Translations under genes and position numbers: made by a program
Part shown: piece by piece, positions 2,590-31,547 of the stretch
Position numbering within the stretch: position 1 is the stretch's first letter
Layout: each line of letters opens with the position of its first letter
The notes under the pieces: model-generated
Seen by the model: the letters and a program-made list of their open reading frames with translations, nothing else
What the model was told of the DNA's origin: nothing
Databases searched by the model: none
NCBI GenBank assembly: GCA_002633005.1
Contig: NMRA01000178.1
Coordinates: 658,062-722,061, forward strand
Reading direction: 5' to 3'
DNA: 64,000 bases
Source: Phoronis australis
Taxonomy: Eukaryota > Animalia > Phoronida

Positions 2590-2857
2590 GGGGTCACTGT
2601 CTACCTTCATTACCAAAGATTTGATTTTTAAAATAACTTTTGGAGTATTAATACTAATTCCATAAAACTACATATGTTTATTATCTTTGAGTATCCCAGA
2701 ATCTTATTAAGTGCACGAGAACAGTATTAAGACGACTGTGATCACGTAACCGCATTCTTTTTAAAATCTCGATTTTTCACGAAGTTCCCACGTTTTTAAT
2801 AGTTCAAACAACATTTCATCAATCAAATCTTTGGTAACGAATGTAGGCAATGACCTT
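2590..2857. mobile_element. MITE-like element with ~37-bp imperfect terminal inverted repeats
   Basis: ggggtcactgtctaccttcattaccaaagatttgatt (2590) is the near reverse complement of aatcaaatctttggtaacgaatgtaggcaatgacctt (2821-2857). Confidence 0.7.
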
Positions 2858-4011: not shown

Positions 4012-4242
4012 TATCGTTGGCCAAATGGGTGAACGTTGCGCACGTAAATTACGTGCGTACTTTGATTCTTATTAGAGGCGTAAAGTAATTATTACTTTAC
4101 GATGTCACTTTGCTGCGTTAACAGTTACTTTAGGCCGCAAATAGTTACTTTACGCTGCAAATAATTACTTCATGCCTCTAACGAAGAATTCACTTTCGCA
4201 GGTAATTTACGTGCGTGGCGTTCATCCATTTGGTCAACTATA
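4012..4242. mobile_element. Foldback/MITE-like palindromic element with internal ~20-bp tandem repeats
   Basis: The left arm tatcgttggccaaatgggtgaacgttgcgcacgtaaattacgtgcg...agaggcgtaaagtaatt pairs with the right arm aattacttcatgcctct...cgcaggtaatttacgtgcgtggcgttcatccatttggtcaactata. The centre has repeated (a/g)ttacttta..c.gcaaata units. Confidence 0.8.
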
Positions 4243-6784: not shown

Positions 6785-7718
6785 TTTAGAAAAATAACCC
6801 GTCGGTCGATTTTAATGAAACGTTTTTAAATGAAAACTTGACCAGTTACCTCAAAAACGCGGTCAGGAATTTTCGATTAAACTTTTCGTTTCATTTCTAT
6901 GACAAACCAACTCGCAAAACGTAAGGTATTTTTGTAGGTGTTTTTGTAAAAAATAACATTCGTATTCGTATTTGTTACATTACGCAAAAACCAAGCCTTT
7001 ATGTTAAAAATCCTAACAGCATTTTTGAGATTGATGAATGAATAATAATTTAGAAGTTTCAGCGAAATCCACCCAGGTGTTTTCGAAAGTTCTTATCACT
7101 AAGTTCAAACTAGGAACCAATATGATTGGTTCAAATTAAGCCGATTTTCCGAAGCCGAGAACAAGTCGACTATGTGGGGACGAGTTAAGGACTGTGGTTA
7201 GTTATTCGGTGAAAACTTGTTTTTGCTCAGTATAACCTATACACCTCTTAATCACTTTCATTATTTCAACATTCATGAGCAATGTCACAGGAATTTGCTG
7301 TGCGTAATTAACTTAATAATCACAACTTTTAATCTAAACCAAGTCTATCTTGTCACGGGCGGAATCAGTATATGAAGTGGGTCAAGCTGGTGTATTGTGG
7401 CCCACTTTAAAGTAGGTCACAGTCAACAGTTCATTGTTTGACACACGGCGAGATTGATATGAAAACCAAAAACGAAATGGGTACAGAGATCAGTCGGTGG
7501 TTAAAGCTCGTCGTGAGGATGAGATCGAAACAAATTGTCGAATTACCCGAGTTAAGGAATTTGGGTGAGGATTTATCTCTTTTCACAACTTTTTATTTTT
7601 GTGAACACTAAGTCACAGAGGCGCGAGACCACCGTTCCCAAAGGTCGTATGCATGCAGACGCATAAATCTCTCAGGATCAACGCAACGTTTTTGTCTTCG
7701 TTTTCCCGGCATTTTCTA

Positions 7719-10135: not shown

Positions 10136-13100
10136 GGGGGGCTGTTTGGCCAGGACGAGATGATTGTGTACCTGAGCTATGAACCTCAATTTTTTGATCA
10201 AAATATTTCGTTACAACATTAGAAAAGCGTAAACAACGTTATCGAGTCGACCTACGGTCAGACACTATAGTGCATGTGTTGTCTAAAATCTATGACCTAC
10301 TTTACTCCAGGAGTCCCACCAGTTGAGACCTACTTTTCATTTGGCGAAATTTAGCAGACGACAGAATAAAAATATCGGTGAATCTTCACTGGTTTTATTC
10401 GAAAGATCGTGAAATCTATGGAATTGTACAGATAATTCGACTTTAAGGTATATACCCAGCTTTACATGAACATATCGTATCAGTGGCCTTGTCATTTGTC
10501 AGGTGAAGGTGAACCCCGAGGCCGAGGGGTTCTTCGGATTTTCGCTGTCTCCTCGAGCACTTATTTTTTCATCGTCACCTTTACAAATTCCCATATCATG
10601 AACGTACGATTCTCTGTTGAAAAGCATCGCCTCTTGTCTCTGTCGACGCGTTTTCAAGTAGTGTAAAAACACTCATCGCTTCCACCAGGAACGTCGTTTA
10701 GCGACAGTGTATTTGCCTCTGACATCTCGTTCGAATGTCGGGTATCACGTGACTTTTCGCATAGAAGCGGAGCTTGTGATAGGTCAATTGTCAAGGTCTT
10801 AACGGACTGACATTCCTTATTAACAGGTTGTGCTGCCGCGATTAGGTCTCTCTCCATTTTGAAGACTACCGGTATTTGTACTCCAAATTGTGGTCTACTT
10901 ACAAGCACAAACGTGGGGTACAAAAGTGAAAACAAACGTGCAGATCCAGTCAAGCAATGCAGATGGCACTGGAGATAGAGAAACAATAAACTGAGTTTGT
11001 GACCAGACAAAATGTCATTGGACTATTGGCATTTACATCTCGAACAGCTATAGACCTCTTGTGAGGAGATTTATAAAAACATTGAAGTAAAACATGATTT
11101 CGGAGTATTCTTCTTGAACAGAATTATTTAACTGCAAAATATGTTTTGAAGTCAGTTAAAACCATCACTAATGCACCTACGCTCTTAGTGGACTCTTAAA
11201 TTTGTCGACGTGTTGGACCTGTGGGCAAATCTGTGGCATTGCAAGAAAGTTATCCAAAGAATACGGCAATGCTTTCATAATGGGAACGTACGTAAAAGGG
11301 TGTTTTTTTCGAAAAATGCTTAAAACGCATGAGCTTGTTCTTTACAGTTAATTCTTTGTGACAAGTGTACACATGCAAAGGTAATGACTGATGGCCAATC
11401 GTTTTTGTACACGGAAGTTGGAAATGGCCATGGACGAACTGGATTCCAAAAGGTGCCTGGTCGATACAGGCGCCAGCGCCTCTATTTTAACACAAACATA
11501 CTGTAGTGTGCTGTTGAAATCCAAAATTTTAGCAGATAGTGGCAAATCGGGCAACGGATGAATTTTTTAAGCAAAACTATCATTTGCCACTGAAACTACA
11601 AAATCTAAATACACTTGTGCACAAGAGCTCTGCAAACGATTTTTGCATCCGTGACACTCTAATCGGTCAATAAAGAAATCTTATGAAGAAGTCACTGCTT
11701 GATCTGAACCGACGTACACAGCTTACGTAACAATTGGGTGGCAATCTAAAAAGCATATTTCGATATAGAATGTTTTTATAATCATAACGCGTTGGGTGAA
11801 TTTCGGTGGGATATAATTGGACCTACTGAAATTTCAGTGTCGTTGCATCAAGTCACTTTTAGCAGATTTTCCAAGTCTCAAAGTCCAGTGTAACATTTCC
11901 AGCTGCAAAGAGGCCCAATCCTCACAGTTTGAAGGGAAGGCCAGGCCTCTAAAGAAATGGAGCCTCTAGATTTCGCTCAGATGCCCACATATACTTGAGA
12001 CCACGAGTACGAGCTGCAACAGGGGACCCTACAACTGTAGCTCAACATTGGACCCGGTTATAGTCAATCCGCCACTGTAGTGGTTCGAGCCGTAAAGCCT
12101 TAAAATCCACAATCTTTCGCAAATTTGCCCATTCCATACACTTTCCCGTGATTGGGTAGAGACTTACTTACCGGAAGTAAAATCGTGAATTACACCAGGC
12201 GCCGCTAGTGAATAGTGAATTCTCGACCAATGGTGCTGGTCGTGTCACAAACGCACGATCACAGATTTTATCTTCCGAACATGCAGAGTTGGTGGTACAT
12301 GTTCTATAGCTTATGATGAAACACGTTCACGCGACTCGTGTATTCGAGTTTAATTTCCGTCCGATGTCTGCAGCCAAATCAAGTTATCAAAGTTCATAAC
12401 TGTTCATGTTGTAAGGCGAGTGGCGCGAATCTACAATGCTTATTTACTATAAAGTTTGTTGGAAGTAACGTAGGTTTTTTATCCTTTATAGATATTTTTG
12501 ATTATTATTATAATTGTTATTGTTATACAGTGTAATAGGTTATACCGAAAATAAAAATCCAATGTTTATGCAATCAATATCCAATTTATTAATTGTTGAG
12601 TGAAATTCGAAAATCCGATTTTTGCTTTAAATCCAAACCAAAAGAATGTTTATTGTGTTAGTACTAACAAAATCAATTCCTTTACACGTTTAGAAAACTG
12701 CAAACGGTTTTACTGGTTATATTTCGCCTCTTTTTACCTTCCTCTAACAACAACGAATCAAATCGTCTGCCATCTTCTACCGTAGTTTTTTACCTAATTT
12801 GGTCATGTAGTGACCTGAATGCAAGCAAATAAGCTTAGTGAATGTTTTACTTCATGATTTCACCGCTAGGTTAAAAAAAGCAAATGGTGGAGTGTCGGAC
12901 AAGAGAAAAGTAAATAGTCGAATCTTCTTTGAGTAATTAAGTTCTTTCCAAGGGCTTAAATTCCGTGCAATTTATGTGCTGTATTATTTCTTAAAATAAA
13001 TATATTCACGCAATCGCGATTTCGACGCGTGCGGGTTAATGTTTGACGAGCAATTAGAGTGTGACGTCTGGCACTTGATTCTGCACATTCACTGCGCATT

Positions 13101-13437
13101 TTGCTGTATTAAAGTACTTGAATGTGTGGAAATGTCTAGTTTTGTTTAGGCCATCATTTTTGTTAGTTCATCCTTTATCTCGGACATGAAGGGATTTTCA
13201 AAGTGAATTTTACCGATTGTTCCTCGTAATTGCATACCCATGTTCGATAATTAATGCGACATGACATTGTGCTTTGTCTCTCATTTAAATGTGAATGCAC
13301 GTGTTTGCGAGTAGTTGCGCTGGCTTCAACTTCGAACAGTTTCATTAAAACGTCGCGTGGTTATACCCGTAATAATTAGATTTCAACCTATATAGTCTTT
13401 GGATACGAGGTATATGCAATGGATGAAAAAGAATAGT

Positions 13438-14219
13438 TTAGTTTGAAGACGTCTCGCCGACTGATGTATAATTAGTGCTGCTATAGTCGTCGTCAGGGTT
13501 ACTTGTCGAGCTGGTGTTTGCATTCGCTTCACTGCTAGAGGGCGCAACTGTTGTTGTAGTTGCGTCATCTTCAGAGGTAATTGTTAATGTCCCACCAGAA
13601 GAGGTAGACATCGTTGTAGTGACAGTTGAACCAGTGTCACTCGCTAGCTTATTCAATTCTGAACCTGGTGTTTCCTTTTGCGATTTTGACTGTGTAGGCT
13701 GTCTGTCTCCTTGGCCGCTCTGGGCTACAAACGGCAGTCCTGTCACCTTCCACGGCTGTTTTGGATACTTAACTGGGTTGCAATAATCGGTACGCATAAC
13801 ACAGCGAGCGCAAGTGCATCCTTGTGGACAGGGATAGCAGAAACCGAGCGAGGTGCATCGAATGCAGGTACACCCAGGAGGACACGACGCGCCGACGGCA
13901 GTACAGCGCAAGCACGTGCATCCCGGCGGACAAATAGATGTCCCGGCTGACCGGGGCCACTCACGGGTGCACTTTTCACATTTGCATCCAATTGGACAGC
14001 TTGGACCCTTCTTGAAAGCTAGACAAAGTTCGCACATGCAGAAACCCGGATGAGGCTTCTTCCGTTTTTTCGTGTTTGGACATGTCAGTTTTTGATAAGT
14101 AGATAGTGTGTTGCAGTAGTTAGTGAGTTCTCCATAGTTGGCTTGACTGGCTGCGTTGTAGCCGTACATATAAGCAAAGTACTGCTGCCAGGCTGGTGTA
14201 GCATACGGATTATCGTCCT
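13438..14219 (-). CDS. Terminal exon of the giant gene: Tyr/Ala-rich segment, 4-5 CPxGCxCxxC repeats, Ser/Thr-rich tail
   Basis: Strong acceptor at 14222-14220. Repeats PGFCMCELC, CPIGCKCEKC, CPPGCTCLRC, CPPGCTCIRC and CPQGCTCARC. TAA at 13440-13438. Confidence 0.75.
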
Positions 14220-17200
14220 CTGGAATTAGAACAAGATTACGATAATGTTTAGACACTTCGTGAGAAATTTGATTGTATCAAATGTAAGAAATGACGTAAT
14301 GTATCCCACTTTTAATTCAAAGCAACCAAAAGGTTAATTGTCCTTATAGGTTGATCAGACACGCGAATTCACCACGTGATATTTTCTACATACCTTCCTT
14401 TACTGGTTCAACTGGTTGATCAAGTTTTTCAGTGATAATAGCCAAAGAGTCAGCTAGAAGGTTAAGCTTGTTGTTGACCATGTCCATTTCTTCCATCAGC
14501 TCAGTATCATCATACTCCTTGTTTAGTGCTCCTGGGGATTAGCAGGGGAAGCAGAGACATTGATATTGATCAAGCAGTACTGCCCCGAATCATAATGAGA
14601 GTTTCTTAATTTTCGCCTGACGTATAGAATACGGCTCAAGATTATGGTCTAAGAAATTGTAATAATAACGACTCCTGTGTGAGGGTAAACCTTGTGGTAG
14701 TACAAAAAGCACAACTTTTTTGTCACTATTTTGGCCTTCCCGGGTGGTTGCAATTCACAGCGCTCCCTGGTCTCGAGCAGTTTCTACCATTCTATCGTTA
14801 CAACTTTCAGGATCCCACCTTCATATAAGTTTCGCTTCTGAAACGAATTGGGGGTGCATGTACTTGCCCCCCCCCCCCCCCCCCCCCCCCNGCCTCCATT
14901 TCCCAAACTGCCCTTGTTATGTGGATGTACTTAAAAGCGTTTCAACAAAGCGGTGTTGAAAAATTAGAATTATACGGTCATCATTTGTATTGATAATATC
15001 ATTTTATGTGATAGCTTAAAGAGGACGAATATATCAAATCTGCTTTCAAACTCGTATAACAATCGGCTCACCTTCGTCTAAGGCGTCCGACACTTTGTTC
15101 ACAGTTGTTGACACCTCTTCCACTTTGTCTTTAAGCTCGTCTACTTTTCCGTCAACCTCGCTCTTCACAATGAAATTTTGATCCTGATTTTCGTATAATG
15201 TTTTAAATTTTGTATGAGGTAGTGAGTAATGGCGGTCCTTGTGATATATCTTCTTTTTCACCTTACCCCGCTTAACAGACGGGGCTGGTATACCTGGAAA
15301 ACGAAGAAGTCTTCTAAATCGGAAAGAAGACGACATAATTTTCCCACTCTTGCTGCTGGCTATGCTTGGTGACTTGCGCCTTGGTGGTGAGAATCGAGGG
15401 GATGGCATGCGTTTCCTCGGTTCAACTTTACCAGACATCCTTCGTGGCCGACTAACGGACGAAGACGACTTGGAACTCCAAGCCTTCGGTATCATGACCT
15501 TGCTTGGAGTTCCACCTGTTCTTTTGACACCGTCTCCATGCTTTATCTTTTTGCTTGTTGACGCGTTCTTAGGAGACAATGATCGAGGAGGAGGAGTACG
15601 TCTTCTGGCTTCTATTTTTCCTGACAGTCTTCGCGGCCTCCAAGGGGTTGCCCTTTCTTCGTCGTTAAACACGGCAAGAGCTCTTCTAAAACTACTCTTG
15701 CTAGGTTTTGCCAAGCTTGCCCTCTCAGGCGGTGTGAAGGTATTGTGGGGGCTAAACCAGTGTTGCATGAGCGTCGGGCTGCTACGAGAACCTACAAGCC
15801 TCCGATGTTGCCTGTCATAGATCGTCATTCCTGATCTTGAAGTTTTTAGAGGGGACGCCACTCTTCCTGAAAATTCATCAGCACTAGTAGTTTTCAACCT
15901 GCGGCCACGTCTTTGTTTAATTTGGTCTCCACTTGGTCTTAGCTGAATTCTTCTTTCCAATCTATCAAACAAGGAAATGGCAGAAGAAGAGTTTCTACGT
16001 TTGCGAGAGAGAACTGTCTGACTAGCTACGCTGACACTTGAGCTCGAACCAGTAAATAAGTTTGTAAATTTCTTAACTTTCTTCAAAACGTTGCCACTTA
16101 GGCTTTTCTTCTCGTCAATGGGAACATCTTTCTTTTCTGTGACATATTTCTCTTCTTTGCATATAGGATTTGTATTACCATGAGTCACGTCATGCTTTGT
16201 TTCAACGCCTTTACGTTCATTTCTGTAGACCCTACAAGTCCCTGCACACCTACAGGCTCCGCGAGTTCTTTCTCCTTCACTTGTTTCGATTTTAACAACA
16301 GCGGTCTTGAAATCCTTTTGTTTCGTGCTATTTGACGTTTTCCTTTTCTCCTTTGACTTTCGCTTATGTGGCTTTGACTTCTTATTGAGATGCCTTTCAT
16401 CCCGGATCTCTTCCTTTTTCATGCTCTCTCTTGGTGGAGGTTGCACGGTTGACGTATCAAGATGTCTTTCATCCGGGATCTTTTCCTTTTCCATGCTCTT
16501 GCTTGGCGAAGGTTGTACGGTTGTGCTCTTTCCGGGATGATTTTGTTCCTTACTTTTTGGCTTCCTCTTAGTGTTGTGTGCTTTTTTTAACTTAGATCTC
16601 TTTTGTTTTTTAATTGTACGTACGCTGTCCGTTGGTTTTGTGTATAATTCGTCCTTGGCAATTTTCACTGCCGTACTGCGTGGTTCCCAAGTAACCTTTT
16701 TCTTAGTCGGTTTTCTTTGTTTCCTCTTATCAACACTGCCAAACGCTTTGGCACGAAATTTCTTAAGCAACCCTCCTTTGCCTCGTCTACCCATTGTGTT
16801 ATTATCTCGACGGTTTGGAGTTTCGTGGTGCTTTGGGATTGTCTTCTTTCTGTGCAAACGGTCTAATTTATCAGAAACTTTGCTTGCGCAATTATCGCTT
16901 TCCATTTGACTAGTGTCAGATGCACTTGTATTTGTGTTCTCGCTATTGAAGGTAGTGCTCCGCACTGTTTGCATTGATATACCGGATGTCTTTTTTATTT
17001 CAGGCAAAGATTCATTTTTGTTCCTCTCTGATATTGAGTATCTTTGGTTCACTGTGTCATGCTGTCTTTGCGCTTTCGTGAGACCGTTGTCACTTTCGGA
17101 ATAACGCCTTTTGCTTTTTCTGAGGTCGCTCCGTTTTGTTACATTTTTCTGCGTTGATATAACCACATCACTTTTGATTGCAAGCTTTTTCGAAGAGGGC

Positions 17201-20200
17201 TTGGCGTTTGGTTTAACTGCACCCTTACACGTTTTGTCATTTCGTTCTTGTTTGTTTTTGCACGCTGATGACTTGCCCAAATTTGTGTTTTCCCTGACCG
17301 ACTCGATATTATGCTGCTGTGCACCTTTAGCCAAATTGCGCTGAAAAGGTATCCTCGAGTCGCCGGAGCAAGCATCGAAAGTAACCGTACTTCCTCGGTT
17401 AATCTTATCAGAACTTCTGAAGACTGTCCTGAGAATTCGCTTTACATTCGCTAAGCCGACACTATATTTTCTATGCTTCTTTGAAGCTATCGTATCATTT
17501 GTTGTCGAAAGCATTTCGGATGGACTTCGAGAAACCTGTTCTGTGGAAATTACAGAGCTATTTTTAAACGATTTGGGTCTCTGTACGTTGTAAGCTTTGT
17601 TTTTGCTGACTTTGCGGTCTCTGTTGTCTTTTTTCTTATTAATGTAAACAGGCAATTCGACAGGCGTAGCTTTAATGGGCGACTTTGGAGATCTATTTTC
17701 AGCGCGAGACGCTTGACTCCTTAACGGTTTTAATTTGAGAGATGACCTCATGTTTCTCCATTGAGTCTGCTGTGACAGACATTCCTTTTCCGTTTTGGTA
17801 AATATTTTTCTACATTTCTTCAATGTGGAGAGCTTTTTTGGTTTCGTTTCTTCCTGTCCCTTTTTAGATTTTGGTAACGCAAATTTCTCCAGGGCAGGCT
17901 TACCTGGTGATTTACGTGATCTTCTGGTTGGTTTCTTCTCGCTTTTAGCTTGCGGTGAGTGCTTGTCTTTTTGAATTGCAGACGTTCCTCCACGCGTAGT
18001 GACTGATACTTTAGACGGGGCTGCAGATTGTTTGATTTTCAGAATTCTAGACTCTTCCTCAGTCTGAGGTATTGATAATTTAATTATGCCTTTGGGTGGT
18101 TTCTGTGTATTGTCAATTTGTTGCCTGCAGGACGTTTCCTTCGCACGTTCCACCAATACCTTACTGGAGTCGGTTCGCTTCACTGTAGACGGTTTACCAA
18201 AAAGATTCTTGGCCAAATTCCAATTTTCTGGATGTTTTCTCTTTTCAGTGTCACTTTTGTGTCTGCGTGACTTTTTTTTAACATTCCCTTTATTACTGGC
18301 ACCCGTCTTTTTCTTTTTCTCAGTTTCAGAAAAACACGTCTTGTCTGATTTATAATTCCTAGTTTTCGTTGTCAGAGGCCCTTGTCCTGTGTTTTCATTC
18401 TTAATTCCTTTGAGGATTTTACTGGTTTTCAAATCCCTTCTTATCAAGTTGCCTTTTTCTGCTTTTGAAAGCACAATATTTTTATTACATTCGACTGAGT
18501 CCTTGACATGGGTGCGAGTGGGTCTCTTTGACCTTTCTCCACTCCGGCTAATTCTGACGGGCTTTTGGTATACTCTGCTGCTTTTCCTAGATGATATTTT
18601 CCCAATTTGCTTGTCAGTTTCTGAAATACGTTTGGTCGGCTTAGGTACGATATTGGATAATTCCGGGATCTTGTCGTTGCCTTTATTGTCTCCTGTGTTC
18701 ACGATTTCTTGGAAACTTGTTTTGCTTGTTTTGTCTGTCGGCTTGGACTTCTCAGAATCAGACAGTGCATGCACGTCTTCCTCTTCCGAAGAAAAGCTTC
18801 GTTCAGGGGTAGTGCTTTGCCTGGCGTATTGAATGTTTTTTACGTCATCCTTGTAAGCTAGGTTTTCACTCTTCAGAGCTGAACTACTATGTTTCTTTAA
18901 CCGACGTCGTATAGCTGGTCCACCGTTTCGATAAAAAACAACTTTCTCAAGTTTTGCCTCCTGTATGTTGTCTTTACTGGTTTGTTTCTTAACGGAAACG
19001 GTTTCTCCATTGATAATCTGCCATTGTAAAACCTTGTCTTTAACACTTAGAACGTCCCGATTAATTGGTAAACTCGACACTTTTTTCAGAGGATCTGTGG
19101 CGTTCAGTCTTTGCTCTTGTGAAGAGCTTTTCTTGCCTCCGAATTGAGAGGCTTCCAATTTCTCAAAAGTAACACTTCCGGGATTATACACCAAAGTTTT
19201 AGATTCCGGAAAGTTGGTTAATTTAGGGATTTTTGTATCCATTCTTGTCTTGTTTTTGTTTTTGTTTTCACGTGGCTTCTTTTTCTGAAGAAGTTGACGC
19301 AATGGCTGTTTGTCCACTTTAACTTCAACTTCGTTTTTGTGTACTTCATGTTCACCAGGGTCTTTGGAATTTTTGTACGTTTTCAAGGGAATTTTTTTCA
19401 ATAATTTGGGAAGATTGCTAATGTTTTCAGCACTAGTGGCCATCGTTTCATAATTCTGTGGTGCTTTTGACTTTTGTGCTTCGAGTTGTTTGTTTGGTTT
19501 AGGGTTTTGAAGTACAGCAACGTTAGGATCACCCTGCAGCGCACCAAGTTCAATATTGTCCTTCATTTGTTTTTTATTTCCTTTTACTCGCATAACCTTG
19601 TTTTCAAGAACCTGGGAAACGGAAAATGTCTTTAAACCATCATCAACTGGTTTGCCTTTTTTGATACCCTCTTTGTCTCCCCTTCTCTTGATACCAACGG
19701 AAGAGCGACTTTTCGGCTTTGCGTATTGACTTTCCAACCGCATAGTTCGTGGAAGATGCTGTAATGAAATATTATCGATCAACTCCTCGACTTCAGCATG
19801 ATCAGATGGCTTAAATTTTCCTAATTTCAATTTTGAGGTTGACTTGCAAACTTTTTTATGCACTTTTTTTTCTTTCGATTTTATTTTCAGGAGTTTGGGA
19901 AGTGACCGGTTGTCTATACCTTCTTCAACCTTGTCTTTCCATGCTTTCGCAACGCTAGTTACATTATTTTTCTTCTCCTTATACCAGTCCTGTGCATTGG
20001 GTGTCATCGGTTTTTCTGATTTTTCAATCTCAGTTTTTTTTTCAGCAGCGCCGCTTTGTCTTCTTGGACCTTTATCGTTTTCGTAAGCATCTTTTGCGTC
20101 TTTGCGTTTCTGCTGAGAATTTGTAACTTCTGATGCCCAGTCTTTGGAGTATTTACTTTGTCGTACCACAGCGTTTTTTCTTTGTAATTCATCGCCTTTT

Positions 20201-22102
20201 AAATGATTGGGCACGCCAACATTCTTTTTCTCAGAATGTTTCAAACAGTCTTGCTCTTGGTCGTCCGTAATAGAAGTAAGAGACGAAGATACAATGTGTT
20301 TTTTTGATTCTTCTAGATTCATGTCAGTTGGTTTCCCGCGTAAAAGCTGATGATTTTGCTTTCTTTTCAAAGAATCACAAGGACTGGACGCCCCATAAGT
20401 AGTACTTTCAAGTATCTTCTTGGTCTTATTTTTTCCTGCAACGTTAACGACACCGTGCTTAGCAATCTCCTGAATAGTTTTTCTCACGTTGGTTTCACTG
20501 TGAGTGAAGAGCATTCCTCTGGGTGTCCATGAATTCGCTGTCCACGAAGGCACTACCTTCATGCTGGGTTTTTTGGTATTCAACTTGTTAGGTTCTCTTT
20601 TTATTTTGTCACCTTCTATTGTTTTAACTATTCGCTTAACTACACCATACTGCCTATTGCTGTTGTTGCTTGCTACGTCATCTTGATGGATGTTGTATAA
20701 TATTTCAATATTTTTTTGCCCACCAACAACACTCTCATGATGATCTTTTGTAAAGTTACTGTTGAAATTAAGTTCCTCGTTTGCAACCTTTTTCCGGCTG
20801 TGTTTGTGGGTTTCTTCGCACGTTTTGTTTATCTCTTCATCTATCTCAATGCTTGTAGACTCATCTTTTCCACATTCAAATTCTTCTTGCCCTCCTGTGC
20901 CATCTTTTTCTAACATAGTTGGCGCAGACATTTTTCTCTTGACGGCATCTTTAAGAAATGTTAGTACGGATACGTACTTTTCCTTAGAACGGTTCATTCT
21001 GATTTTTGATTCTTCGTCCAATCCCATTAATGTCTTCGTTAGGACGACTAACTTTCCAATTTTAGAGCCCCCTGTATTGTAATTAAGTCGAGACCCATTC
21101 CTGTACTTGGCGAGTCTCAATGTCAATTCTTTTCCCATTTTATCAGCACCTGCTGCCTCTTTGAAAGCACTGATTAAATTTCCGAGTCTCTTGGTATCCA
21201 AATGATTTCGTGAATTTGTACTTCTCCGATTGGAAGCCCTGTGTCTTCTTTTATTCATATTTGTTCTGAGCTTGCGTGCTAATGTATTCTTCCGCTCAAA
21301 AAAACTGAGAATACTGGTTGTACTTTGTTTCAACGCGTTCCTGGCATTCTTGAAGTATACGCTCGTCCCGTCATCCTCTTCGCTACAGCTGGCGTTGTTG
21401 TTCCCGTTTAGCTGTTCTATGGAAGCTGAGTGCGACATTTTACCTCCGGCTATTTCGTTTCCCTTTTGTCGTACGCTGTTCGAGAGTTTGCAAACACTGT
21501 GTTTCACGTAGCGTTTTATTCCTGCGCCATCTTGTCTGCAGATGTACTTGGTTCCGTTACTTATCGCTTGAGTTTCTATCACCCTATTTTTACCACCTTT
21601 CTCCTTATATGTAACGGTGCTACGATTCACTGGTGCCGTAACGTGCCTTCTGTCGTGTTGTTTAGTAACAATACTATTTGGGATGGAATCAAATTTTTGT
21701 TTTCTTGACTCAATATTATCTGCACCATTTTTGTTACTCCTATAGCAATATCTTATCGCAGCGCTCAACTTTGGTGGTACACACTGACAATTGTTTTCAT
21801 ATCTTTCCTTTCTATTTCTATAAACCCCATTGCACAAGTAACTTAAGTTTGACACTGTCGATAAGATACCGAATCGGTGGTGAATTATTTTATATCTTAG
21901 CTGAACTTCTTTACGTTTCTTTTCAGATAATGTGTTTCTATTTTCTTTTTTCTCCTCCGTGTCATTATAGATACTTTCGTTTCCGTTTTCTTCTGTCGTG
22001 TTTTATTTTTCTCCTACCGCATTTGATTGGCAGGCACCTGAACGCTAATCGACAGTTCCACGGAACTACTGAAGCGAGCAGGTTTGCCTGTTCTGTATTC
22101 AT
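13438..22102 (-). CDS. Giant orphan gene: basic disordered region + coiled coil + Cys-repeat domain (~2595 aa from ATG 22102, or 2428 aa from ATG 21438)
   Basis: Exons: 22102-22018 (tentative; donor G|GTAGGA); 21854-15072 (donor GAAG|GTGAGC); 14531-14394 (acceptor tctctgcttcccctgctaatccccAG, donor GAAG|GTATGT); 14219-13438 (acceptor cttgttctaattccAG). All junctions are phase 1 and in frame: ...SDALDE-G-ALNKEYDD...EPVKE-E-DDNPYA... Confidence 0.7.
14394..14531 (-). CDS. 138-nt phase 1-1 exon encoding an acidic coiled coil (not in the ORF track)
   Basis: Translates ALNKEYDDTELMEEMDMVNNKLNLLADSLAIITEKLDQPVEPVKE, with a canonical acceptor and donor. Confidence 0.75.
15072..21854 (-). CDS. 6.8-kb single exon encoding a Lys/Arg/Ser-rich intrinsically disordered region
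   Basis: The frame is stop-free from 22002 to 15049, far longer than chance allows. No recognisable globular domain. First in-frame ATG at 21438 (aaaATG context). Confidence 0.85.
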
Positions 22103-22164
22103 ATACTGGATGGCGACATCGGTGAATTACAGGTATGTACGAAGGGTGGCCGATGAATATGTGG

Positions 22165-22227
22165 TGACGTGTTCAAACGCTGACGTCATATTGGAATTTA
22201 GTCGGTTAAGAAACTAGAATGAATTGG
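22165..22227 (-). promoter_or_regulatory. Candidate promoter of the giant gene: palindromic CRE plus CCAAT boxes
   Basis: TGACGTCA at 22181-22188, half-site TGACG at ~22165, and minus-strand CCAAT at 22190-22194 and ~22223-22227. These lie 60-125 bp upstream of ATG 22102. Confidence 0.45.
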
Positions 22228-22802
22228 TGCAATGGGCCGTGCATGCATATGAGGCCGACACAGCTTGATTTACCCCTTTTACGTGATGTGTGACCAACAG
22301 GTGGGGTGCCGACCAGATTTCAAAATGTTTGAGAATGCTTTCAAGAATTAAAAATGCAACACAACACTGTCACTCATTGATCTCTTTTATTTAGAGCGCC
22401 AATGAGCCGAAGAAAATGAATTCTAGTTTAGACCACTTATTTATGACCGATATTAAATTGGTCTTAGCTTGATCATAATAGTGGAAAGCTCAGTCATTCC
22501 CCTTTCCAACAGTACCGCATTTTGTCAATGAATTTTGGATATGCTCAGTAACTTTGCTGTCAAAGAAGGCTTGGTCTCAAAGTGAATGTTGCAAATTTCC
22601 CTGTTTTTACTAAGCATTGTCACCACCTATGGTGTGCTGATGATTAACACCGGGGGATAAACACCAAATTTTTGAGACACTGATTGGTAGTATGGAACTC
22701 TTGCTGTTAGCAGCCTCAGTATGAATTGTAATTATGTAAATTGTGTTAGGAGTGCCCAGTTTGAGGTTTCTTCAGATGTAAAATCTGGTTTTCTGGCTCC
22801 AA

Positions 22803-23019
22803 ATGGAATACCCGCATGCAGCCCAGACTTGAACCCTATCGAACACCTGCGGGACCAACTCGGACAGGCGCGAGTGACCAACACAACCACTGAGCGCTGA
22901 TAAGGTGCTTCCTGACTGAGGAGTTGAATGCCATCACACGGCAACGCGTCTCCAGGCTAGTAAAGAAAGTGTACAATATGGCTGCCGTGACTTCGAATGT
23001 TTCCTCAACCAGATACTGA
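22803..23019 (+). mobile_element. Tc1/mariner transposase C-terminal remnant
   Basis: Reads 'PACSPDLNPIEHLRDQLG..RVTNTTT', 'LTEE*NAITRQRVSRLV' and 'SSTRY*', the WPxxSPDLNPIExxW...TRY* end of Tc1 transposases. Degraded. Confidence 0.85.
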
Positions 23020-25429
23020 GAAGACTATCACTACAGTCTATGAGTCAGTTTTTCAATGAATAATTAGTGTTTAAGTGTTGCAAATTGTCATAAGTTCTTA
23101 TTACCACGGAACCAGCTGCGTAATTGCCATTGAAAAAGCTTAATGTTCAAATTTGAAATTACATTTAGCTGCAGCTGAATTTGCGACAGTCACTTCTTAA
23201 AAGACCAAGCGCCCTCTTTGGAAACAAAGTTACTAAGCACAATAAATATTTATTCAGGAAATGTGATATCAATGGAAAGGGCAATGTCTGGGCTTTTTTG
23301 GTATGCAAAATGATTTGATTAAACCAAAAATGATAAGACACGTGCGAGTGAACATAAATTTCCAAATTTTTATTGAAGTGTGTATATTATAAAGTCAAAC
23401 GCATGAGCCATGACATTCTCGATAACAAAATTACAGACGTTTGTTTTGAGTTTGTACAAAATATCAAAAATAATTTCTTTTTCGAGTAGAAAGACCAGAC
23501 TCGGAGCCCAGTCAGACCCCGCGCAGCCCAGGTCCAACTATGGACTCATCAAGTGGTCTGTCGAGGCCGATGTCGAGTCAGCAAGCCAGCTGCGTGAGGA
23601 CTAGCGTCGAAAGGCAAATTTGTACCGTGGCGTCAACCAAGTTTTTCAGCCGTAAGCAGTGTTCTCGTGAGAATTAAAGTTGAGCTATTGTAACGCAGAG
23701 TCTGGCCAGATTTCGTAAAGCTCGGCTTTTAAGCAGTCCGGCGGAAGAACTTAATTTAATTATGTCCTCGTTTTTTCCTTCATTGTTTAACAAGCTGAAA
23801 CCGCTTTAAAGCAGTGTATTATTGACGATTGATATGACAACCAAGCGTGATAGCCCACCACGGTCAAAAACTTGGCGAGAACGCTGAGGACTTATTTCTT
23901 TCCAATCACAGGTTGAAACCACTTTTGAACTGAGTGAGAAACAAGTTGATGCGTTAAGTGGATGAAACAAAAAATATGGTTTCTTTCGTGGAAAATGAGT
24001 TTGTAAAAGCTTACAACGAGTCGACAGTTTGCACCTATACAACACCAGTAACATGATTATCGTTTTATTGCTTATAAGGACAAGGTTGCGCTCATTTATT
24101 GAAAAGGACACATTTGTTTGTGTCCACAGAACAAATTTCGTTTCATCATGTGTCTCCGTTCGCTTTCCTGCAAGCGACTTTGAAGATCGCTCATAACATC
24201 CTCAGCCAAGCTCAAGAAAACGCCCTGCATCATGTTGCGCGTGTCTCTTTTCTCGGGATTACAACAATGGTTGCTTTCGTCTGTACGGGTTGTGTTAAAG
24301 ATCGGCGTTAGAGACGAAAGCAAAGATTGGTTACCACAACAATTGACCCACTGTCGTTTACAGGTGTACGTTGGAACTCCTCCATGCGGCCACAGAATGA
24401 AGTTTGAGAGAACTAGTTCTGGTTGCCCTTTCACATATTTGCTGTTTTCTGGAAAATATGCACCGGAAATGTCAGACAACGACCAACTGTTGATTGATTT
24501 GATTCAGACTGACTTAGTGTCGTCCGGTCATTTTTATCCCCGAGCCTCCATCATTCCTCTTTATATCATGACAGCAAAGCCACATCCTACAATCGGCTGA
24601 ATTGCAAGAACAGGTAAAAACACAACAGTACATGCTTGTGTAGCTAATACTCTTACAAGTTTTGAATAATGGTCAACAATCCGTCTTCGTTTTATTAACG
24701 TCGTCAAAAATGTCTTGTTTGCTGTTGTAAATGTCTGTGTTTGCTCATTAAATAGCACAGTTTCGGCAAAGTCAAGGAAGTTCCATTAGAAGTCTTTTTC
24801 GTGCTCAATCGGTGAGAAAAGCAATATTCAGGGATCAGCCCCAACGCGGAATCGACCTCACAACCTTAACTACTTCCAACGATCTACTGGCGGGTCTAAA
24901 CCTCACTCGATAAATGCCAGAGAATTTTCAAAGCTTATAAAACTTCAGGTTGTCAATCCCATTTAACGGTAATCCGATTTTCGGCTGCGAAACCGAATAG
25001 TTATGTTCCTTTAATAAACCTGATATTTTTTTGAATGGAAAAAGTTTGGAGAAAATGACGTGCACAGCACAGTCACACGTCTGCACGCGGGTATATACAA
25101 AGTCAAATGCGCTTTCCGTGTCTAGATTATTGTAAATTGTTTTGGAAAGAGGCGCAGTGACGGCAGTGGGCCTATCTGAGTACGGAGAATGACTGATTGT
25201 GTAGTTAACTGAAACGCCGTTGTCAAATTAGCAAGACGTGGCATAATGCTGAAGGTATTGTATCGTAATAATCAAACACTTGTTTTGCTCTTTGTATAGG
25301 TAGATAATAAAAGTGGTGGTTAATCGGACGATTAAAACGATCAGGAAATTTTAATGTGATATATTTTGATTTATGTATATTTCATTATATACCAGCACAG
25401 TCGTCTTTTACACTTTACGTTTTATCCCT

Positions 25430-25810
25430 TTATATATATTTGTACACCATCCGAGCCAATTCGCATCTTGCATTTTGTCTGAAATTGACATCCTCGGACA
25501 ACTTGTTGGCAAGAAGATCACGTCCAAGAGACGCCAGTTCTTCCTCAGTTAGGACTCGCAGTCGATGCACATTGGTAGTCGCATTGTTATTACGCGTGGT
25601 GTTCCCGATAGTAGACGAGCTTGTTTGTGAACCAGAGTCCACCCAGTTTGAGAAGTTTCCAAACGAATTTCCGGTTTTGCTAATGCAAAAATTGTTGGAG
25701 GACGAAGGAATGGCACTGTAGTTACTCATGAAACCCGTTGGCCGTTCCTCGTCGTGCCAACGATTTTTCGGTCTACTTCTGTCCACACTCGATAACGCTG
25801 TGATAAACAT
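25430..25810 (-). CDS. Hypothetical 126-aa ORF (Ser/Asn/Thr-rich N-part, helical-looking C-part)
   Basis: ATG-initiated and lies downstream of a strong acceptor (ttttattttattcAG at 25898-25896). No recognisable family. Confidence 0.3.
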   Translation of the reverse strand: MFITALSSVDRSRPKNRWHDEERPTGFMSNYSAIPSSSNNFCISKTGNSFGNFSNWVDSGSQTSSSTIGNTTRNNNATTNVHRLRVLTEEELASLGRDLLANKLSEDVNFRQNARCELARMVYKYI

Positions 25811-26228
25811 TTAGAGTTACATTGTATGGCGGTTCAGTTTCCTTTTGGAAAGCATTAGTTTCACTGAAGAGGCCACTATCATTTTAAATGATCCACTGAA
25901 TAAAATAAAAATATTACAATAAAACTGATAACAATAAAAATTGGTAGTTTGAAGTCGGGTATTACTAGTGCCAAGTACATTATGATAATGTACACAAATC
26001 TTTGATGTTATTACGCAACACTGTCTCAAAAACTTTTGATTTTTTAATAAACCGCAAGCCGTTTCATGGTGAGTGCTAATCTACATAAATTGCCTCAATC
26101 TTTCCTGTGGACACTAAGTGTTCCAGCACCGCCATAACTTATTGACCAATGAGACATTTAAAAATAAGTTCTAAAATTGAAAGGTTGTACAGGGCACCTG
26201 ATAAAAGCTTCAACATTACCACCTGAAT

Positions 26229-26394
26229 CAGTGGCGGATTTAGAGGCTGGACCATGGGGCAATGCCCNCCCCCCCCCCTACTAAAATTCTTCCTGTTTCC
26301 ATTGACAGTTCGGGAGTGCAAATGTCTGACGGACAAAATCCTGGGTAATATTCTGCCCTGGCTCCCCTAACTCAAAATCCTGGATCCGCTCTTG
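26229..26394. mobile_element. Non-autonomous DNA element, 'CAGTGGCGGAT...ATCCGC' family C
   Basis: cagtggcggatttag ... ctcccctaactcaaaatcctggatccgctcttg. The right end is the reverse complement of 54270-54302. Confidence 0.7.
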
Positions 26395-26514
26395 TGAATG
26401 TTACGTGGCATTTTCTTCACAGACCAATAAATTGAGTCTGCGGCTCTTGAGCTCCATCTATTTAATACAAGAAAAGATGTTCTCCGAGAATTTAGTTGTA
26501 ACGACGTTTGATCT

Positions 26515-27063
26515 TTAGGTAGAAAAATGAGTTCTACCTTTGCTGGTATTCGAAACCAAAAATTTCGGTCGCCTAGTGTATACACCGCCCCTAAATCCCC
26601 TAAGACGCCCAACGAATACATTGTCGGAGTTGTCACAAATACTCTCGCAGTGATGTTGTCCGCATCCGCGGTCGATGTCCTTCATCTTCATCACAACGGT
26701 GTGATTATTCCGAGATCGTGTGGCGCTTCTCAGTCTAGTGTAGTGCCTTGTAGGTGTGTAAGGTAAAACTCTTCCAGGAGGTGAGATAATCTGGCGCAAG
26801 CGATGGACGGTTCTACCACCTTTGGTCAACTCTTGATAAGGGTCAAGTCCTTTTGTGAGAAGCCTGTGGAGTTCGATCCGTGGCGGCCGTGCTCGTCCTG
26901 GCCTCGACTTTGTCTTCTTCATTGAAAATTTCTTTAGTTTTTGACTCCATTTCCTTTTCCTTTTGTCATTCCTTGTTTTCTTTGCCTTTTCAATTTCACT
27001 CCTTTGTTTCAACTTAGCAGAATAATTTGAATTGCATTCCTTGGAGCAAACTTTTAAATTCAT
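26515..27063 (-). CDS. Hypothetical Lys/Arg-rich 182-aa ORF
   Basis: ATG at 27063. Very basic (KKTRNDKRKRKWSQKLKKFSMKKTKSRPGRAR). Upstream TTGCGTCATATT motif at 27289-27300. Confidence 0.4.
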   Translation of the reverse strand: MNLKVCSKECNSNYSAKLKQRSEIEKAKKTRNDKRKRKWSQKLKKFSMKKTKSRPGRARPPRIELHRLLTKGLDPYQELTKGGRTVHRLRQIISPPGRVLPYTPTRHYTRLRSATRSRNNHTVVMKMKDIDRGCGQHHCESICDNSDNVFVGRLRGFRGGVYTRRPKFLVSNTSKGRTHFST

Positions 27064-27828
27064 TGTGGTTTTCTCTCCCACTGTGATACCAGCATTTTTT
27101 CAGATTAGAGTTGTTTTCTTTTACACCTTCGTTTTTGCATTTTAGTGGTTTTATTAACCTTTCGTGGACCTAATGTACATGTAGTGACAGGTCGAAGTGT
27201 GTTGACAGACTTCACAGTCGTGCCCCCAAAACTTGCAATCTGGCTATATTTCGTCAAACTTGGGTAACAAGCAAATACAACGATGGCATTGCGTCATATT
27301 ATATCGTGCGCCGATAATGTATAGATATATTCCGATTGTGCTTCTCGTTTTGTCATTTCATCCTTCAGAATTCAACCGTGCAGTGTTTTGCAGTTAACAA
27401 CTCAGTCTTGACTGTCCACGATTTTTGGTGATTTAATTTTACTTCATTTTCAGATGATTGTCGATAAACAACGACGTGACTACGCAACTCTTGACTCTTT
27501 TTCTTGTGCGAGCATAGCAGCACCAAGTACAGAGCCAACTGATTTGACTCTGTGAAAGTATATGTACAGTTATAAATATCATATGCTCACATTTATGTTC
27601 TCATTGTCGGAAACTAGCACTATCTTAACCCATATTTCAATGAATTTCATTTTACTTTGGGTTACTTCAGGAGTAAATTATGTTTTTCTTACCGAACTTC
27701 CCTGTTCCCGTCTGGGAACTCAGTCACTGTTTTGTAGACAGAAACATGTGTGAGTTATTGTACAAAATCTTGGGTAGAGACCGTTAAATTTTAAATTAAT
27801 CTGTTCACATGTATAGTGTACATTTTTG

Positions 27829-28392
27829 TCATATGCATGAACGTACACTATTACCTGCATTTGTCATGTTTTTCCTGGAAGTCCGCACGTGCCTGTCTTT
27901 TCTGTAAGTGTGTGTCTTCACTTGCGGCAACCTGAATAGTTGTCGCAGCTTAGATTCTGGTGATCGGCGAGGCTGACGCCGGCGTCTCGGCGATAAAGAT
28001 TTATTGAAGCGAACACAAGGCGACGGACCACGTATGGGAAATTCTCTGTGCGGGCGTTGGTGCTTTCGCAAAATGAGCTTTTTGTAAACGTTTGATTCAT
28101 CTTTGACATCCGACGTATCGTCTCCGCTGGTTGTTTGTGCATCTTTCTTCCTTTCTCTCTTTCTGTCGTCACTTACTCTCTTGTTTTTCCTTTTCTCGTC
28201 ATTTTTACGGGCGTCGTTAACGTTAGTTTCTCTACTTCTGTTAGTCTTTTTCGATTTTTTTGATTTGTGCTTACTCTTTCTGGAATAGATTTTGGACCTT
28301 TGACGATTTGCTTTGTTGCCAGATGACATACATTGTTTTGCCTGCTGTGTACTTCCTGAGTCACGTGACGACGAACCAGATGTCGGGACCAT
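27829..28392 (-). CDS. Hypothetical Lys/Arg/Ser-rich 187-aa ORF with protamine-like SPRRRR motifs
   Basis: ATG at 28392. Contains SRKSKHKSKKSKK and SLSPRRRRQPRRSP. Phase-1 donor CAG|GTAATA at 27854. Upstream TTGCGTCAATAT at 28483-28494. Confidence 0.45.
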   Translation of the reverse strand: MVPTSGSSSRDSGSTQQAKQCMSSGNKANRQRSKIYSRKSKHKSKKSKKTNRSRETNVNDARKNDEKRKNKRVSDDRKRERKKDAQTTSGDDTSDVKDESNVYKKLILRKHQRPHREFPIRGPSPCVRFNKSLSPRRRRQPRRSPESKLRQLFRLPQVKTHTYRKDRHVRTSRKNMTNAGNSVRSCI

Positions 28393-28930
28393 GAAGGGGT
28401 CTCTGAAAGAGCCATGCTCACGGCATTTTTGAGAACTCGATTTTACGACCAATGTTAGTCACTCTTTACGTGAATGCTTTGTTTGCGTCAATATCATTGT
28501 TCCACCTCCCTGGTCCTTATAGATAAGAGCCATTCGATGAATGGCAGCGGTTATTTGCAGTTCGCAAAGATATCAAAGGTGTAATCCTTGATTTTGCCCT
28601 GGTTGGCTATTTCTGTGATCATAAGACGTGAAGCATGGGGTCTCTAGCTCATTTTGCACTATAACTGGACATTTTAGACCCTGTCTTACTGCAATACTTA
28701 GCGATTGATATGCAGAGACACAACTGGTGTAGCCTGAAAGAAGAAGTTGGTCATGAGCCGAAGAAAGACACAGCGACGTTGTTGGCACAATATCAATATG
28801 TCGTCAAGGACTACGACTAACATCGCAGCACGACAGAGAAGCGAGGAATGGTGCAACAGCAAGTAAAAGGTGTGCAAAACGAAAGATAACTTCGTGAAAG
28901 CAGCAGGCATGTAACATCAGACCAATTGGC

Positions 28931-29312
28931 TCAACTGGCAGGGAGACTGGCAGAGAATTCTTTGTAGGCCGGTACACTAAAGAGAAGTATTAGTTGGCCA
29001 CGGGAGAGACTGGCAGACAAGTCTCAATTGGGCGGAAAACGGGTAGAGAAGTCTTATAGTTGTGCGCGAGACGGGCAGAAAAGTCTGCATTGGCCGAGAG
29101 ACGACAACGACGTCTCAATTGGCCAGACGACGGGCAGAGAAGTCTCAGTTGCCCGGGAGAATGACAGAGAAGTTTCAGTTGGCCGTGAGACTGGCAGAGA
29201 AGTCTCAGTTGACTGCGAGACTTACTGAGAAGTCTCAGTTGGCCGGGAGACTGGAAGATAATCCTGAGTTGACCGGGAGACTGGCAGAGAACCCTGAGTT
29301 GGCCGGCAGACG
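28931..29312. repeat. 30-bp minisatellite (~12 degenerate units, consensus GAGACTGGCAGAGAAGTCTCAGTTGGCCGG)
   Basis: Directly visible tandem units, each with a GAGACT/AGTCTC inverted stem. Confidence 0.9.
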
Positions 29313-31475: not shown

Positions 31476-31547
31476 TATAAGAACTGGTGGCGTGTCTGCT
31501 GGATTTACACGTGTTCGCAGGTTGATAACTACCAGCAAGAAGTGAAC
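31476..31547 (+). promoter_or_regulatory. TATA box and non-coding first exon of the VWA-VWD gene
   Basis: TATAAGA at 31476, donor AAC|GTAAGT at 31548, and acceptor ttggtttccTAG (32181-32183) immediately before the ATG. Confidence 0.55.

What the first reader, a model, noticed from the sequence alone, without database searches (positions are those of the whole stretch)
13438..22102. Two separate ORFs are one ~2,500-aa orphan protein: giant basic exon + coiled coil + Cys4 repeat array
Seen: the 2269-aa ORF has a donor (GAAG|GTGAGC, 15071) just before its stop. A hidden 138-nt phase 1-1 exon (14531-14394) continues the acidic coiled coil begun at the ORF's end, then splices in frame into the Cys-rich ORF at a strong acceptor (14219). 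The product is >2000 aa of K/R/S-rich disorder from a single 6.8-kb exon, a ~70-aa coiled coil, a Tyr-rich linker, CPxGCxCxxC repeats and an S/T tail. I recognise no family with this layout. Established: basic, SP/RRxS-rich and Cys-Pro-Gly-rich compositions occur in sperm nuclear basic proteins and sperm-tail proteins (Drosophila Mst84D/87F CGP repeats, mammalian ODF1 and SMCP). Inference: a germline structural or chromatin scaffold, oligomerised by the coiled coil and cross-linked by Zn or disulfides.
Basis: partly seen in the sequence, partly recalled or inferred. Interest (0 to 1): 0.8.

Follow-up and report, generated by a model that had tools for sequence, protein, structure and literature searches.

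The report
Giant basic orphan with co-expressed neighbours
RNA reads show that two reading frames in an invertebrate genome are one spliced gene, which would make a 2,400-2,600-residue, strongly basic, predicted-floppy protein with no relatives found; it is on together with two neighbouring genes for small basic proteins in two samples and off in two others, and it is likely a scaffold for building sperm, though the tissue is unknown.

Summary
The gene model is confirmed to the base. Stranded RNA reads cross both predicted junctions (44+39 and 41+32 reads in runs X1 and X2), depth is flat over a 7.06-kb first exon, and intron 1 is nearly empty. The product would be 2,428 aa from the first in-frame ATG, up to 2,615 aa; the start is unresolved. 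It has a basic, predicted-disordered chain, two acidic heptad segments, four CPxGCxCxxC units plus one His variant, and an S/T tail. No animal relative or family was found. New here: two orphan two-exon genes just upstream, one nested in the other, also encode basic proteins (pI 10.6) and share the on/off pattern: on in X1 and X2, off in X3, where a neighbouring mucin-like gene is expressed. Tissue labels are hidden, so the germline reading stays an inference. It likely works like Drosophila Mst77F or mammalian cylicins but failed membership tests for SNBPs, CGP proteins, cylicins, metallothioneins and CXC domains. The scan held no look-alike on other DNA. A real, lineage-restricted gene of moderate interest.

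The parts
15072..22132 (-). Gene A exon 1 (about 7.06 kb, first exon); stop-free frame 22002-15072; K 15%, S 11%, R 8%, pI 10.3, predicted disordered
   Evidence: (flat depth, 5' ends at 22132)
22181..22188 (.). Palindromic CRE TGACGTCA, 56 nt upstream of the gene A 5' end (function untested)
   Evidence: consensus from PMC10454534 passage
21997..21999 (-). In-frame ACG in an A-rich context, second codon of the open frame: candidate near-cognate or allelic start (2,615 aa); untested
   Evidence: the 188 codons above the first ATG have no stop (P about 7e-7 from shuffles)
21436..21438 (-). First in-frame ATG (2,428-aa product, 273.6 kDa, pI 10.06); 8 other ATGs lie between it and the 5' end
16388..16523 (-). 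In-frame 72-nt tandem duplication inside exon 1
15190..16038 (-). Arg/Ser/Pro-rich end of the basic chain (R 15%, S 17%, P 9%, K 10%)
15079..15156 (-). Heptad segment 1, Val-rich a/d, acidic; helical in a single-sequence AlphaFold2 model (block pLDDT 69-83 over most of the helix)
14532..15071 (-). Intron 1, 540 nt, GT-AG, phase 1
   Evidence: 44 + 39 junction reads
14394..14531 (-). Gene A exon 2, 138 nt; holds heptad segment 2 (14499-14422, Leu-rich a/d, acidic)
14220..14393 (-). Intron 2, 174 nt, GT-AG, phase 1
   Evidence: 41 + 32 junction reads
13383..14219 (-). Gene A exon 3; stop at 13440-13438; reads reach at least 13383, none of this strand in 12800-13173
14080..14214 (-). Tyr-rich linker (8 Tyr in 45 residues)
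13801..14052 (-). Cys array: one H-x3-C-x-C-x2-C unit and four C-P-x-G-C-x-C-x2-C units; likely metal-binding or disulfide-forming (untested)
13441..13695 (-). Ser/Thr-rich tail (40 of 85 residues)
27855..28456 (-). Gene B exon 1 (basic, pI 11.5; ATG 28392); TGACGCAA 34 nt upstream of the 5' end
   Evidence: (5' ends at 28456: 17 and 13 molecules)
24067..24448 (-). Gene B exon 2; spliced product 296 aa, pI 10.6
   Evidence: 221 + 178 junction reads over a 3,406-nt intron
26538..27220 (-). Gene C exon 1, nested in the intron of gene B (basic, pI 11.1; ATG 27063); TGACGCAA 76 nt upstream; a 3' end at 26451 suggests an unspliced short form
   Evidence: (5' ends at 27220 and 27232)
25393..25797 (-). 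Gene C exon 2; spliced product 297 aa, pI 10.6
   Evidence: 52 + 85 junction reads over a 740-nt intron

Best explanation
This is one three-exon gene, expressed in some samples and not others, that would encode a 2,400-2,600-residue basic, predicted-disordered protein and likely serves as a scaffold on or around the nucleus of developing sperm. Shown: transcript, junctions, composition, heptads, Cys units, co-expression with genes B and C. Inferred mechanism: the long basic chain binds DNA without sequence preference; the two acidic heptad segments bundle several chains, perhaps only after DNA binding neutralises them, as proposed for Drosophila Mst77F; the five Cys/His units first hold zinc and later form disulfide cross-links that stiffen the assembly; [ST]Px[KR] sites allow phosphorylation to time binding. 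It is likely a minor architectural component rather than the bulk DNA-packing protein. Genes B and C likely belong to the same programme.
For: Junctions and flat exon depth. On in X1 and X2 (about 230 laid reads per million), no depth on the exons in X3, while X3 has more junction reads than X1/X2 on the neighbouring mucin-like gene (17 and 23 vs 3-4), and X4 holds a contig of that gene but none of gene A. Two more orphan genes for basic proteins share the pattern. No signal-like or membrane segment (best 19-residue hydropathy 0.91, in the Cys array), so likely intracellular. A CRE or half-CRE lies within 100 nt of all three 5' ends; CREM drives spermatid genes through such sites in mammals (PMC10454534 passages). 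Among 41 shown substitutions in exon 1, 11 are silent, near the 26% expected without constraint, none makes a stop, and the 3 indels with real support are multiples of 3: frame kept, residues free, as reported for much of the cylicin sequence (PMC10684152 passages). Mst77F pairs an acidic coiled coil with a basic unstructured DNA-binding part and carries Cys proposed to cross-link (PMC4381051 passages; PMC5133442 abstract).
Against: No tissue, sex or stage label is available. X1 and X2 show the same fixed differences and may be one animal or one tissue, so they are not independent. With no DNA run listed, absence of the locus from the X3 animal is not excluded. Abundance is modest (at most about 29 FPKM), low for a bulk sperm nuclear protein unless the samples are mixed tissue. 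Charge density is low (+0.12 per residue; best 100-residue window 37% K+R). The promoter motif was noticed after the fact: random triples of 100-nt windows share as many 5-mers in 1553 of 3000 trials and the three promoters share no 6-mer. Kinship of A, B and C is not supported (57, 302 and 67 of 1000 shuffles reach the scores). The substitution tally uses only the 41 rows shown for exon 1, a fraction of those found (190 and 636 rows hidden), and no stop in 41 has P = 0.18. No protein evidence.
Confidence: 0.42

Rival explanations
1. A male-germline gene, but the protein is a cytoplasmic accessory part of the sperm tail or midpiece: the basic chain would bind microtubules or mitochondrial surfaces and the Cys array would form a disulfide-stiffened sheath, as ODF1, SMCP or Mst87F-type proteins do.
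For: Same expression evidence. Cys-Pro-Gly-containing units. Lys exceeds Arg two to one and charge density is low. Runs of four K/R are no commoner than in shuffles (3 vs 6.2), so no clear nuclear-targeting signal. Fly Mst87F/Mst98C resemble mammalian ODF proteins (PMC12584897 passage).
Against: No CGP tripeptide; Cys is 1.7% of the protein and confined to 80 residues; no Pfam or PDB match.
Confidence: 0.2
2. A tissue- or stage-specific intracellular structural protein outside the male germline (oocyte, embryo or larva, ciliated or secretory epithelium), using the same basic chain, coiled coil and Cys cross-links.
For: The runs show only on versus off. Basic, disordered, lineage-restricted proteins are not limited to sperm (own knowledge). 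CRE sites are also read by CREB in somatic cells (PMC10454534 passage).
Against: Three adjacent orphan genes for pI >10 proteins, one nested, co-expressed and near-neutral in sequence is a pattern I associate with testis genes (recalled; one search gave no usable paper). No signal peptide, which argues against shell, glue or mucus proteins.
Confidence: 0.23
3. The working part is the last ~330 residues (coiled coils plus a metal-binding Cys array, acting as a zinc buffer or small adaptor), and the giant exon is a weakly constrained spacer or a precursor that is cut into basic peptides.
For: Substitutions in exon 1 are near the neutral ratio (11 silent of 41); indels and a tandem duplication are tolerated. 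Mst77F is matured by proteolysis (PMC5133442 abstract). The Cys unit equals the end of several mollusc metallothionein domains and of the CXC domain (PMC7826182, PMC10058331 passages).
Against: A stop-free frame of 2,318 codons is kept while the other two frames hold 104 and 217 stops, and basic composition holds along the whole exon. No full metallothionein or CXC pattern.
Confidence: 0.12

Closest known systems
Drosophila Mst77F (PMC4381051 passages; PMC5133442 abstract)
   Same: Basic unstructured region plus an acidic predicted coiled coil, no winged helix, Cys residues; the model of non-specific DNA binding followed by multimerisation fits the anatomy here.
   Different: Here the order is reversed (basic chain first), the basic chain is over 2,000 residues long, charge density is low, Cys sit in a repeated C-x3-C-x-C-x2-C array, no sequence match was found, and sperm expression is not shown.
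Mammalian cylicins CYLC1/CYLC2 (PMC10684152 passages)
   Same: Lys-rich, pI above 10, most of the coding sequence in one large exon, many codons under relaxed constraint; structural role around the sperm nucleus.
   Different: KKD/KKE repeats are not enriched (4 vs 5.6 in shuffles); no Pfam match; the Cys array and heptad pair are not among the cylicin features in the passages read.
Mollusc protamine-like and protamine SNBPs (PMC11607694, PMC13113032 passages)
   Same: Basic, Ser/Arg/Lys-rich segments; Cys occurs in some marine invertebrate SNBPs.
   Different: 274 kDa against 6-40 kDa; Arg 7%; no linker-histone winged-helix match; modest transcript level.
Mst87F/Mst84D CGP proteins, ODF1, SMCP
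   Same: Cys, Pro and Gly in short repeated units.
   Different: No CGP tripeptide; units are C-P-x-G-C-x-C-x2-C; they make up 3% of the chain.
Metallothionein domains and tesmin/TSO1 CXC domain (PMC7826182, PMC10058331 passages)
   Same: The unit's C-x-C-x2-C end closes mollusc alpha, beta2 and beta3 domains; C-x3-C-x-C-x2-C is the last part of the CXC consensus.
   Different: No complete alpha, beta1, beta2, beta3 or CXC pattern; no Pfam hit.
P0001, an unnamed GIY-YIG homing-endonuclease-like protein
   Same: Its C-terminal half has six similar C-x-x-x-C-x-C-x2-H units; the only hit among 1.84 billion representatives (E 1.4e-4, 41% identity).
   Different: Last ligand is His; attached to a nuclease; the likeness rests on the repeated short motif and is most simply convergent.

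Membership tests
Protamine / protamine-like SNBP | Small size (PL 6-40 kDa) and high Arg/Lys content | tested here: not met
   273.6 kDa, Arg 7.1%, K+R 21%; ranges from PMC11607694 passage
Protamine / protamine-like SNBP | Linker-histone winged-helix domain (PL-I type) | tested here: not met
   No Pfam match in the whole ORF or six pieces; no folded segment predicted in exon 1
Protamine / protamine-like SNBP | Major protein of sperm chromatin | not testable with these tools
   No tissue labels, no proteomics; at most about 29 FPKM
Mst77F-type SNBP | Acidic coiled coil plus basic unstructured region | tested here: met
   Heptads 8/8 twice, net -18 over the region; exon 1 net +255
Mst77F-type SNBP | Sequence homology | tested here: inconclusive
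   No hit; Mst77F was not compared directly and such proteins diverge fast
Mst77F-type SNBP | DNA-induced multimerisation and spermatid chromatin location | not testable with these tools
   Needs experiments
Cylicin | KKD/KKE repeats | tested here: not met
   4 observed, 5.6 expected; 251 of 300 shuffles reach it
Cylicin | pI above 10 | tested here: met
   10.06 whole, 10.28 exon 1
Mst84D/Mst87F CGP, ODF1, SMCP | CGP or CCGP repeats (definition recalled) | tested here: not met
   0 CGP; no Pfam match
Metallothionein | 9- or 12-Cys alpha/beta domain patterns, 15-30% Cys overall, mostly under 100 aa | tested here: not met
   Patterns from PMC7826182 table 1 give no match; Cys 1.7% overall, 25% in the 80-residue core
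Tesmin/TSO1 CXC (CRC) domain | CXCX4CX3YCXCX6CX3CXCX2C | tested here: not met
   Only the last four Cys match; consensus from PMC10058331
CCCH zinc finger | C-x7/8-C-x5-C-x3-H | tested here: not met
   No pattern; PDB tristetraprolin hit is E 1.4
Secreted matrix protein (shell, glue, mucus) | N-terminal signal peptide | tested here: not met
   No hydrophobic segment from either candidate start (hydropathy scan; no dedicated predictor)

The most novel reading that the evidence does not exclude
A 270-295 kDa sperm scaffold of a new build (2,000-residue basic chain, paired acidic coiled coils, tandem array of a four-ligand zinc unit that later turns into disulfides), possibly started at a non-AUG codon, heads a compact nested cluster of three CRE-driven genes for basic proteins: an invertebrate spermiogenesis locus that arose independently of the mammalian protamine/CREM system and of fly Mst77F.
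Probability: 0.15. Interest if true: 0.7.

Novelty: new variant of a known kind. Interest (0 to 1): 0.42.

Why it matters
If germline, it adds a very large, independently built example of the basic-chain, coiled-coil, cysteine design used to shape sperm, and offers a compact three-gene locus for asking whether CRE-type control of late sperm genes exists outside vertebrates. It also shows how ORF-based annotation splits such genes. The limit: animal genomes hold many lineage-restricted, disordered, tissue-specific giants, and neither tissue nor function is shown here.

Tried and rejected
No whole genome is held, so paralogues elsewhere and related animal genomes were not searched. Run search: no RNA holder listed; four runs came by species label only. 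Homologue searches: exon 3, lengths 490-2000, 0 of 3686 candidates (the full-length protein is outside this range); exon 1 residues 1950-2311, lengths 1274-4057, 0 of 7980; Cys part against 1.84 billion representatives, 1 hit; ESM Atlas no usable hit; PDB 1 hit at E 1.4 and 0 hits; PHROGs none; viral contigs 0 of 5 and metagenome contigs 0 of 26 candidates confirmed; gene B exon 2, 0 of 96; gene C exon 2 in the Atlas gave unnamed clusters at 0.94 and weak TOG/HEAT leads with recognition below the mark. The spliced protein was never searched as one query, only exon pieces. AlphaFold2 on the Cys part: pLDDT 42, unusable, so no fold search was run. Complex prediction of three copies of heptad segment 1: no verdict, score 0.16. 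Paralogy of A, B, C rejected as unsupported despite short look-alike motifs. Upstream exon or trans-splicing: no AG at the 5' ends and no joint or loose end listed. A frameshift joining ATG 22102 to the main frame: no indel listed there among the 10 rows; only a 66-nt go-back joint in 4 X2 reads. The loose end at 14221 is exon-2 sequence, not another acceptor. A Pfam RPA3 hit at 7411-7608 (E 7e-4, below cut-off) was not used as a control. Paper searches found no description of this gene or of a CPxGCxCxxC array: one search gave 0 occurrences of CPPGCTC and CPxGCxC, and its 3 CPXGC listings looked unrelated by title. The library lacks most subscription papers, and no supplements were opened.


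Full report
Observation. The window is animal DNA with introns. Neighbours include a VWA-VWD-C8-TIL mucin-like gene, a DXD glycosyltransferase and a CEP126-like gene with a weak K1377 hit. Unchecked notes of this scan call the genome a likely mollusc; I could not test that. On the - strand a stop-free frame runs 22002-15046 (2,318 codons) and another 14277-13438.

RNA test. Four runs were offered by species label; none was listed as holding the stretch. Laid on 12800-24000, X1 and X2 gave 3,011 and 2,556 reads, stranded to match the - strand, at 30-65x across all three exons. Intron 14532-15071 is skipped by 44 and 39 reads and intron 14220-14393 by 41 and 32; both are GT-AG and exactly where predicted. 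The intron-1 bin has 0.36x and 0x. Depth falls off near 22132, where 6 molecules end in X1, with no AG and no listed joint, so the giant exon is the first exon, about 7.06 kb. X3 gave 27 reads, all 90-95% alike partial matches upstream of the gene, and X4 gave no contig on it.

Protein. From the first in-frame ATG (21438) the product is 2,428 aa, 273.6 kDa, pI 10.06. The frame is open for 188 codons above that ATG (P about 7e-7 from shuffles; 4 of 8 shown substitutions there are silent), so the true start may lie higher. An ACG at 21999 in an A-rich context is a candidate (2,615 aa); the RNA allele at that base was not among the rows shown. Exon 1 is K 15%, S 11%, R 8%, net +0.12 per residue, 97% unfolded by FoldIndex, and ends in an Arg/Ser/Pro-rich stretch. 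Two acidic 26-residue segments have 8 of 8 hydrophobic a/d positions (0 of 5000 shuffles each); the first is helical in a single-sequence model. A Tyr-rich linker leads to one H-x3-C-x-C-x2-C and four C-P-x-G-C-x-C-x2-C units, then an S/T tail. There is no hydrophobic segment that could be a signal peptide or membrane span.

Selection. The RNA differs from the window by fixed changes shared by X1 and X2. Of 41 shown substitutions in exon 1, 11 are silent (26% expected without constraint; P 0.86) and none is a stop (P 0.18). Three indels with real support (+15, -6, -6) keep the frame; four further 1-nt rows in exon 1 (18653, 18835, 19569, 20033) and one in exon 3 (13759) have only 3-4 reads at 38-71x in one run and look like read errors. 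The rows shown are a fraction of those found (190 and 636 hidden). Reading: the frame is maintained, most residues are free.

Surroundings. Laying 21300-40800 revealed two more genes on the same strand. Gene B: 5' end 28456, intron 27854-24449 (221 and 178 reads), 296 aa, pI 10.6. Gene C lies inside that intron: 5' ends 27220/27232, intron 26537-25798 (52 and 85 reads), 297 aa, pI 10.6. Both have a basic first exon and a phase-1 donor. Both are at about 70-280x in X1/X2 and 0-0.05x in X3; X4 has one low-depth contig on gene C exon 1. As control, the mucin-like gene has 17 and 23 junction reads in X3 against 3-4 in X1/X2, and a spliced contig in X4, so X3 and X4 are usable libraries. 44 joints were not shown, so rarer cross-splicing among B, C and A is not excluded. 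Neither gene has a Pfam family or a found relative. Kinship among A, B and C is not supported. All three 5' ends have TGACG within 100 nt (a full CRE at A; TGACGCAA at B and C); 17% of 100-nt windows have TGACG, so B and C both having it is about 0.03 once A had suggested the motif, and the after-the-fact control shows shared 5-mers are ordinary. Weak support only.

Relatives. Searches are listed under Tried and rejected. The only hit is P0001, a GIY-YIG-type protein with six similar Cys3-His units, best read as convergence on a short metal-binding unit. The Cys spacing matches the end of the CXC consensus (PMC10058331, passages) and its C-x-C-x2-C end closes several mollusc metallothionein domains (PMC7826182, passages), but no whole pattern is met. 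'Orphan' means no hit in these libraries; related animal genomes could not be searched.

Mechanism. Shown: one gene, its structure, sample-restricted co-expression. Inferred: male germline; DNA binding by the basic chain; bundling by the heptads; zinc then disulfides in the Cys array. The nearest working model is Mst77F, where a basic unstructured part binds DNA non-specifically and an acidic coiled-coil region is needed for multimerisation and aggregation (PMC4381051, passages), and which is processed with its cysteines kept (PMC5133442, abstract). Cylicins show that Lys-rich, pI >10, loosely constrained proteins build the structure around the sperm nucleus (PMC10684152, passages). Size (protamine-like proteins are 6-40 kDa; PMC11607694 and PMC13113032, passages), low charge density and at most about 29 FPKM argue against a bulk protamine. 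I put the nuclear or perinuclear sperm scaffold at 0.42, a sperm-tail part at 0.2 (PMC12584897, passage), a non-germline structural protein at 0.23 and a spacer or precursor reading at 0.12. Caveats: X1 and X2 may be one animal, and absence of the locus from X3's animal is not excluded. CRE consensus and CREM's role are from PMC10454534 (passages), which has no invertebrate data. Other papers in searches were seen as listings only.

Verdict. Observation confirmed; interpretation plausible and partly supported, with the tissue untested. It is not a member of any family tested; it likely works like known basic sperm scaffolds with a layout I did not find described in the ten paper searches. New variant of a known kind; interest 0.42.

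Noticed in passing
window 24067-28456 (-): Two orphan two-exon genes for basic proteins (296 and 297 aa), one nested in the other's intron, co-expressed with the main gene.
   Followed up: partly
window 28461-30413 (+): Low-level opposite-strand signal (1-5x) in X1/X2 only, divergent from gene B's 5' end, over a degenerate 30-33-nt repeat (28936-29322) with an open frame of 10-11-residue repeats.
   Followed up: no
window 26451-26538 (-): Gene C has a 3' end at 26451 (6 molecules, X2) just past the in-intron stop: likely an unspliced short basic isoform.
   Followed up: no
window 27094 and 28430: One-base insertions in a third to a half of reads in the 5' leaders of genes C and B, next to upstream ATGs.
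   Followed up: no
window 21941-22006: 66-nt go-back joint in 4 X2 reads at the very start of the open frame; possibly an in-frame duplication allele.
   Followed up: no
window 32594-45295 (+): Multi-exon VWA-VWD-C8-TIL mucin/zonadhesin-like gene, higher in X3 than in X1/X2.
   Followed up: partly
window 49183-50334 (-): 383-codon ORF of a DXD glycosyltransferase (PF04488, E 2.5e-17) with an N-terminal hydrophobic anchor.
   Followed up: no
window 58521-63140 (+): CEP126-like gene pieces (PF15352, E 5e-4, below cut-off); CpG observed/expected 0.44 here against 0.95-1.0 over genes A-C and the mucin-like gene, suggesting gene-body methylation only here.
   Followed up: no
window 355-834 and 34349-34966 (+): Retrotransposon fragments (zf-RVT, RVT_1), the second inside an intron of the mucin-like gene.
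   Followed up: no
P0001 residues 99-200: A GIY-YIG homing-endonuclease-like protein with six C-x3-C-x-C-x2-H repeats that no Pfam or PHROG model covers: a possible undescribed zinc module.
   Followed up: partly
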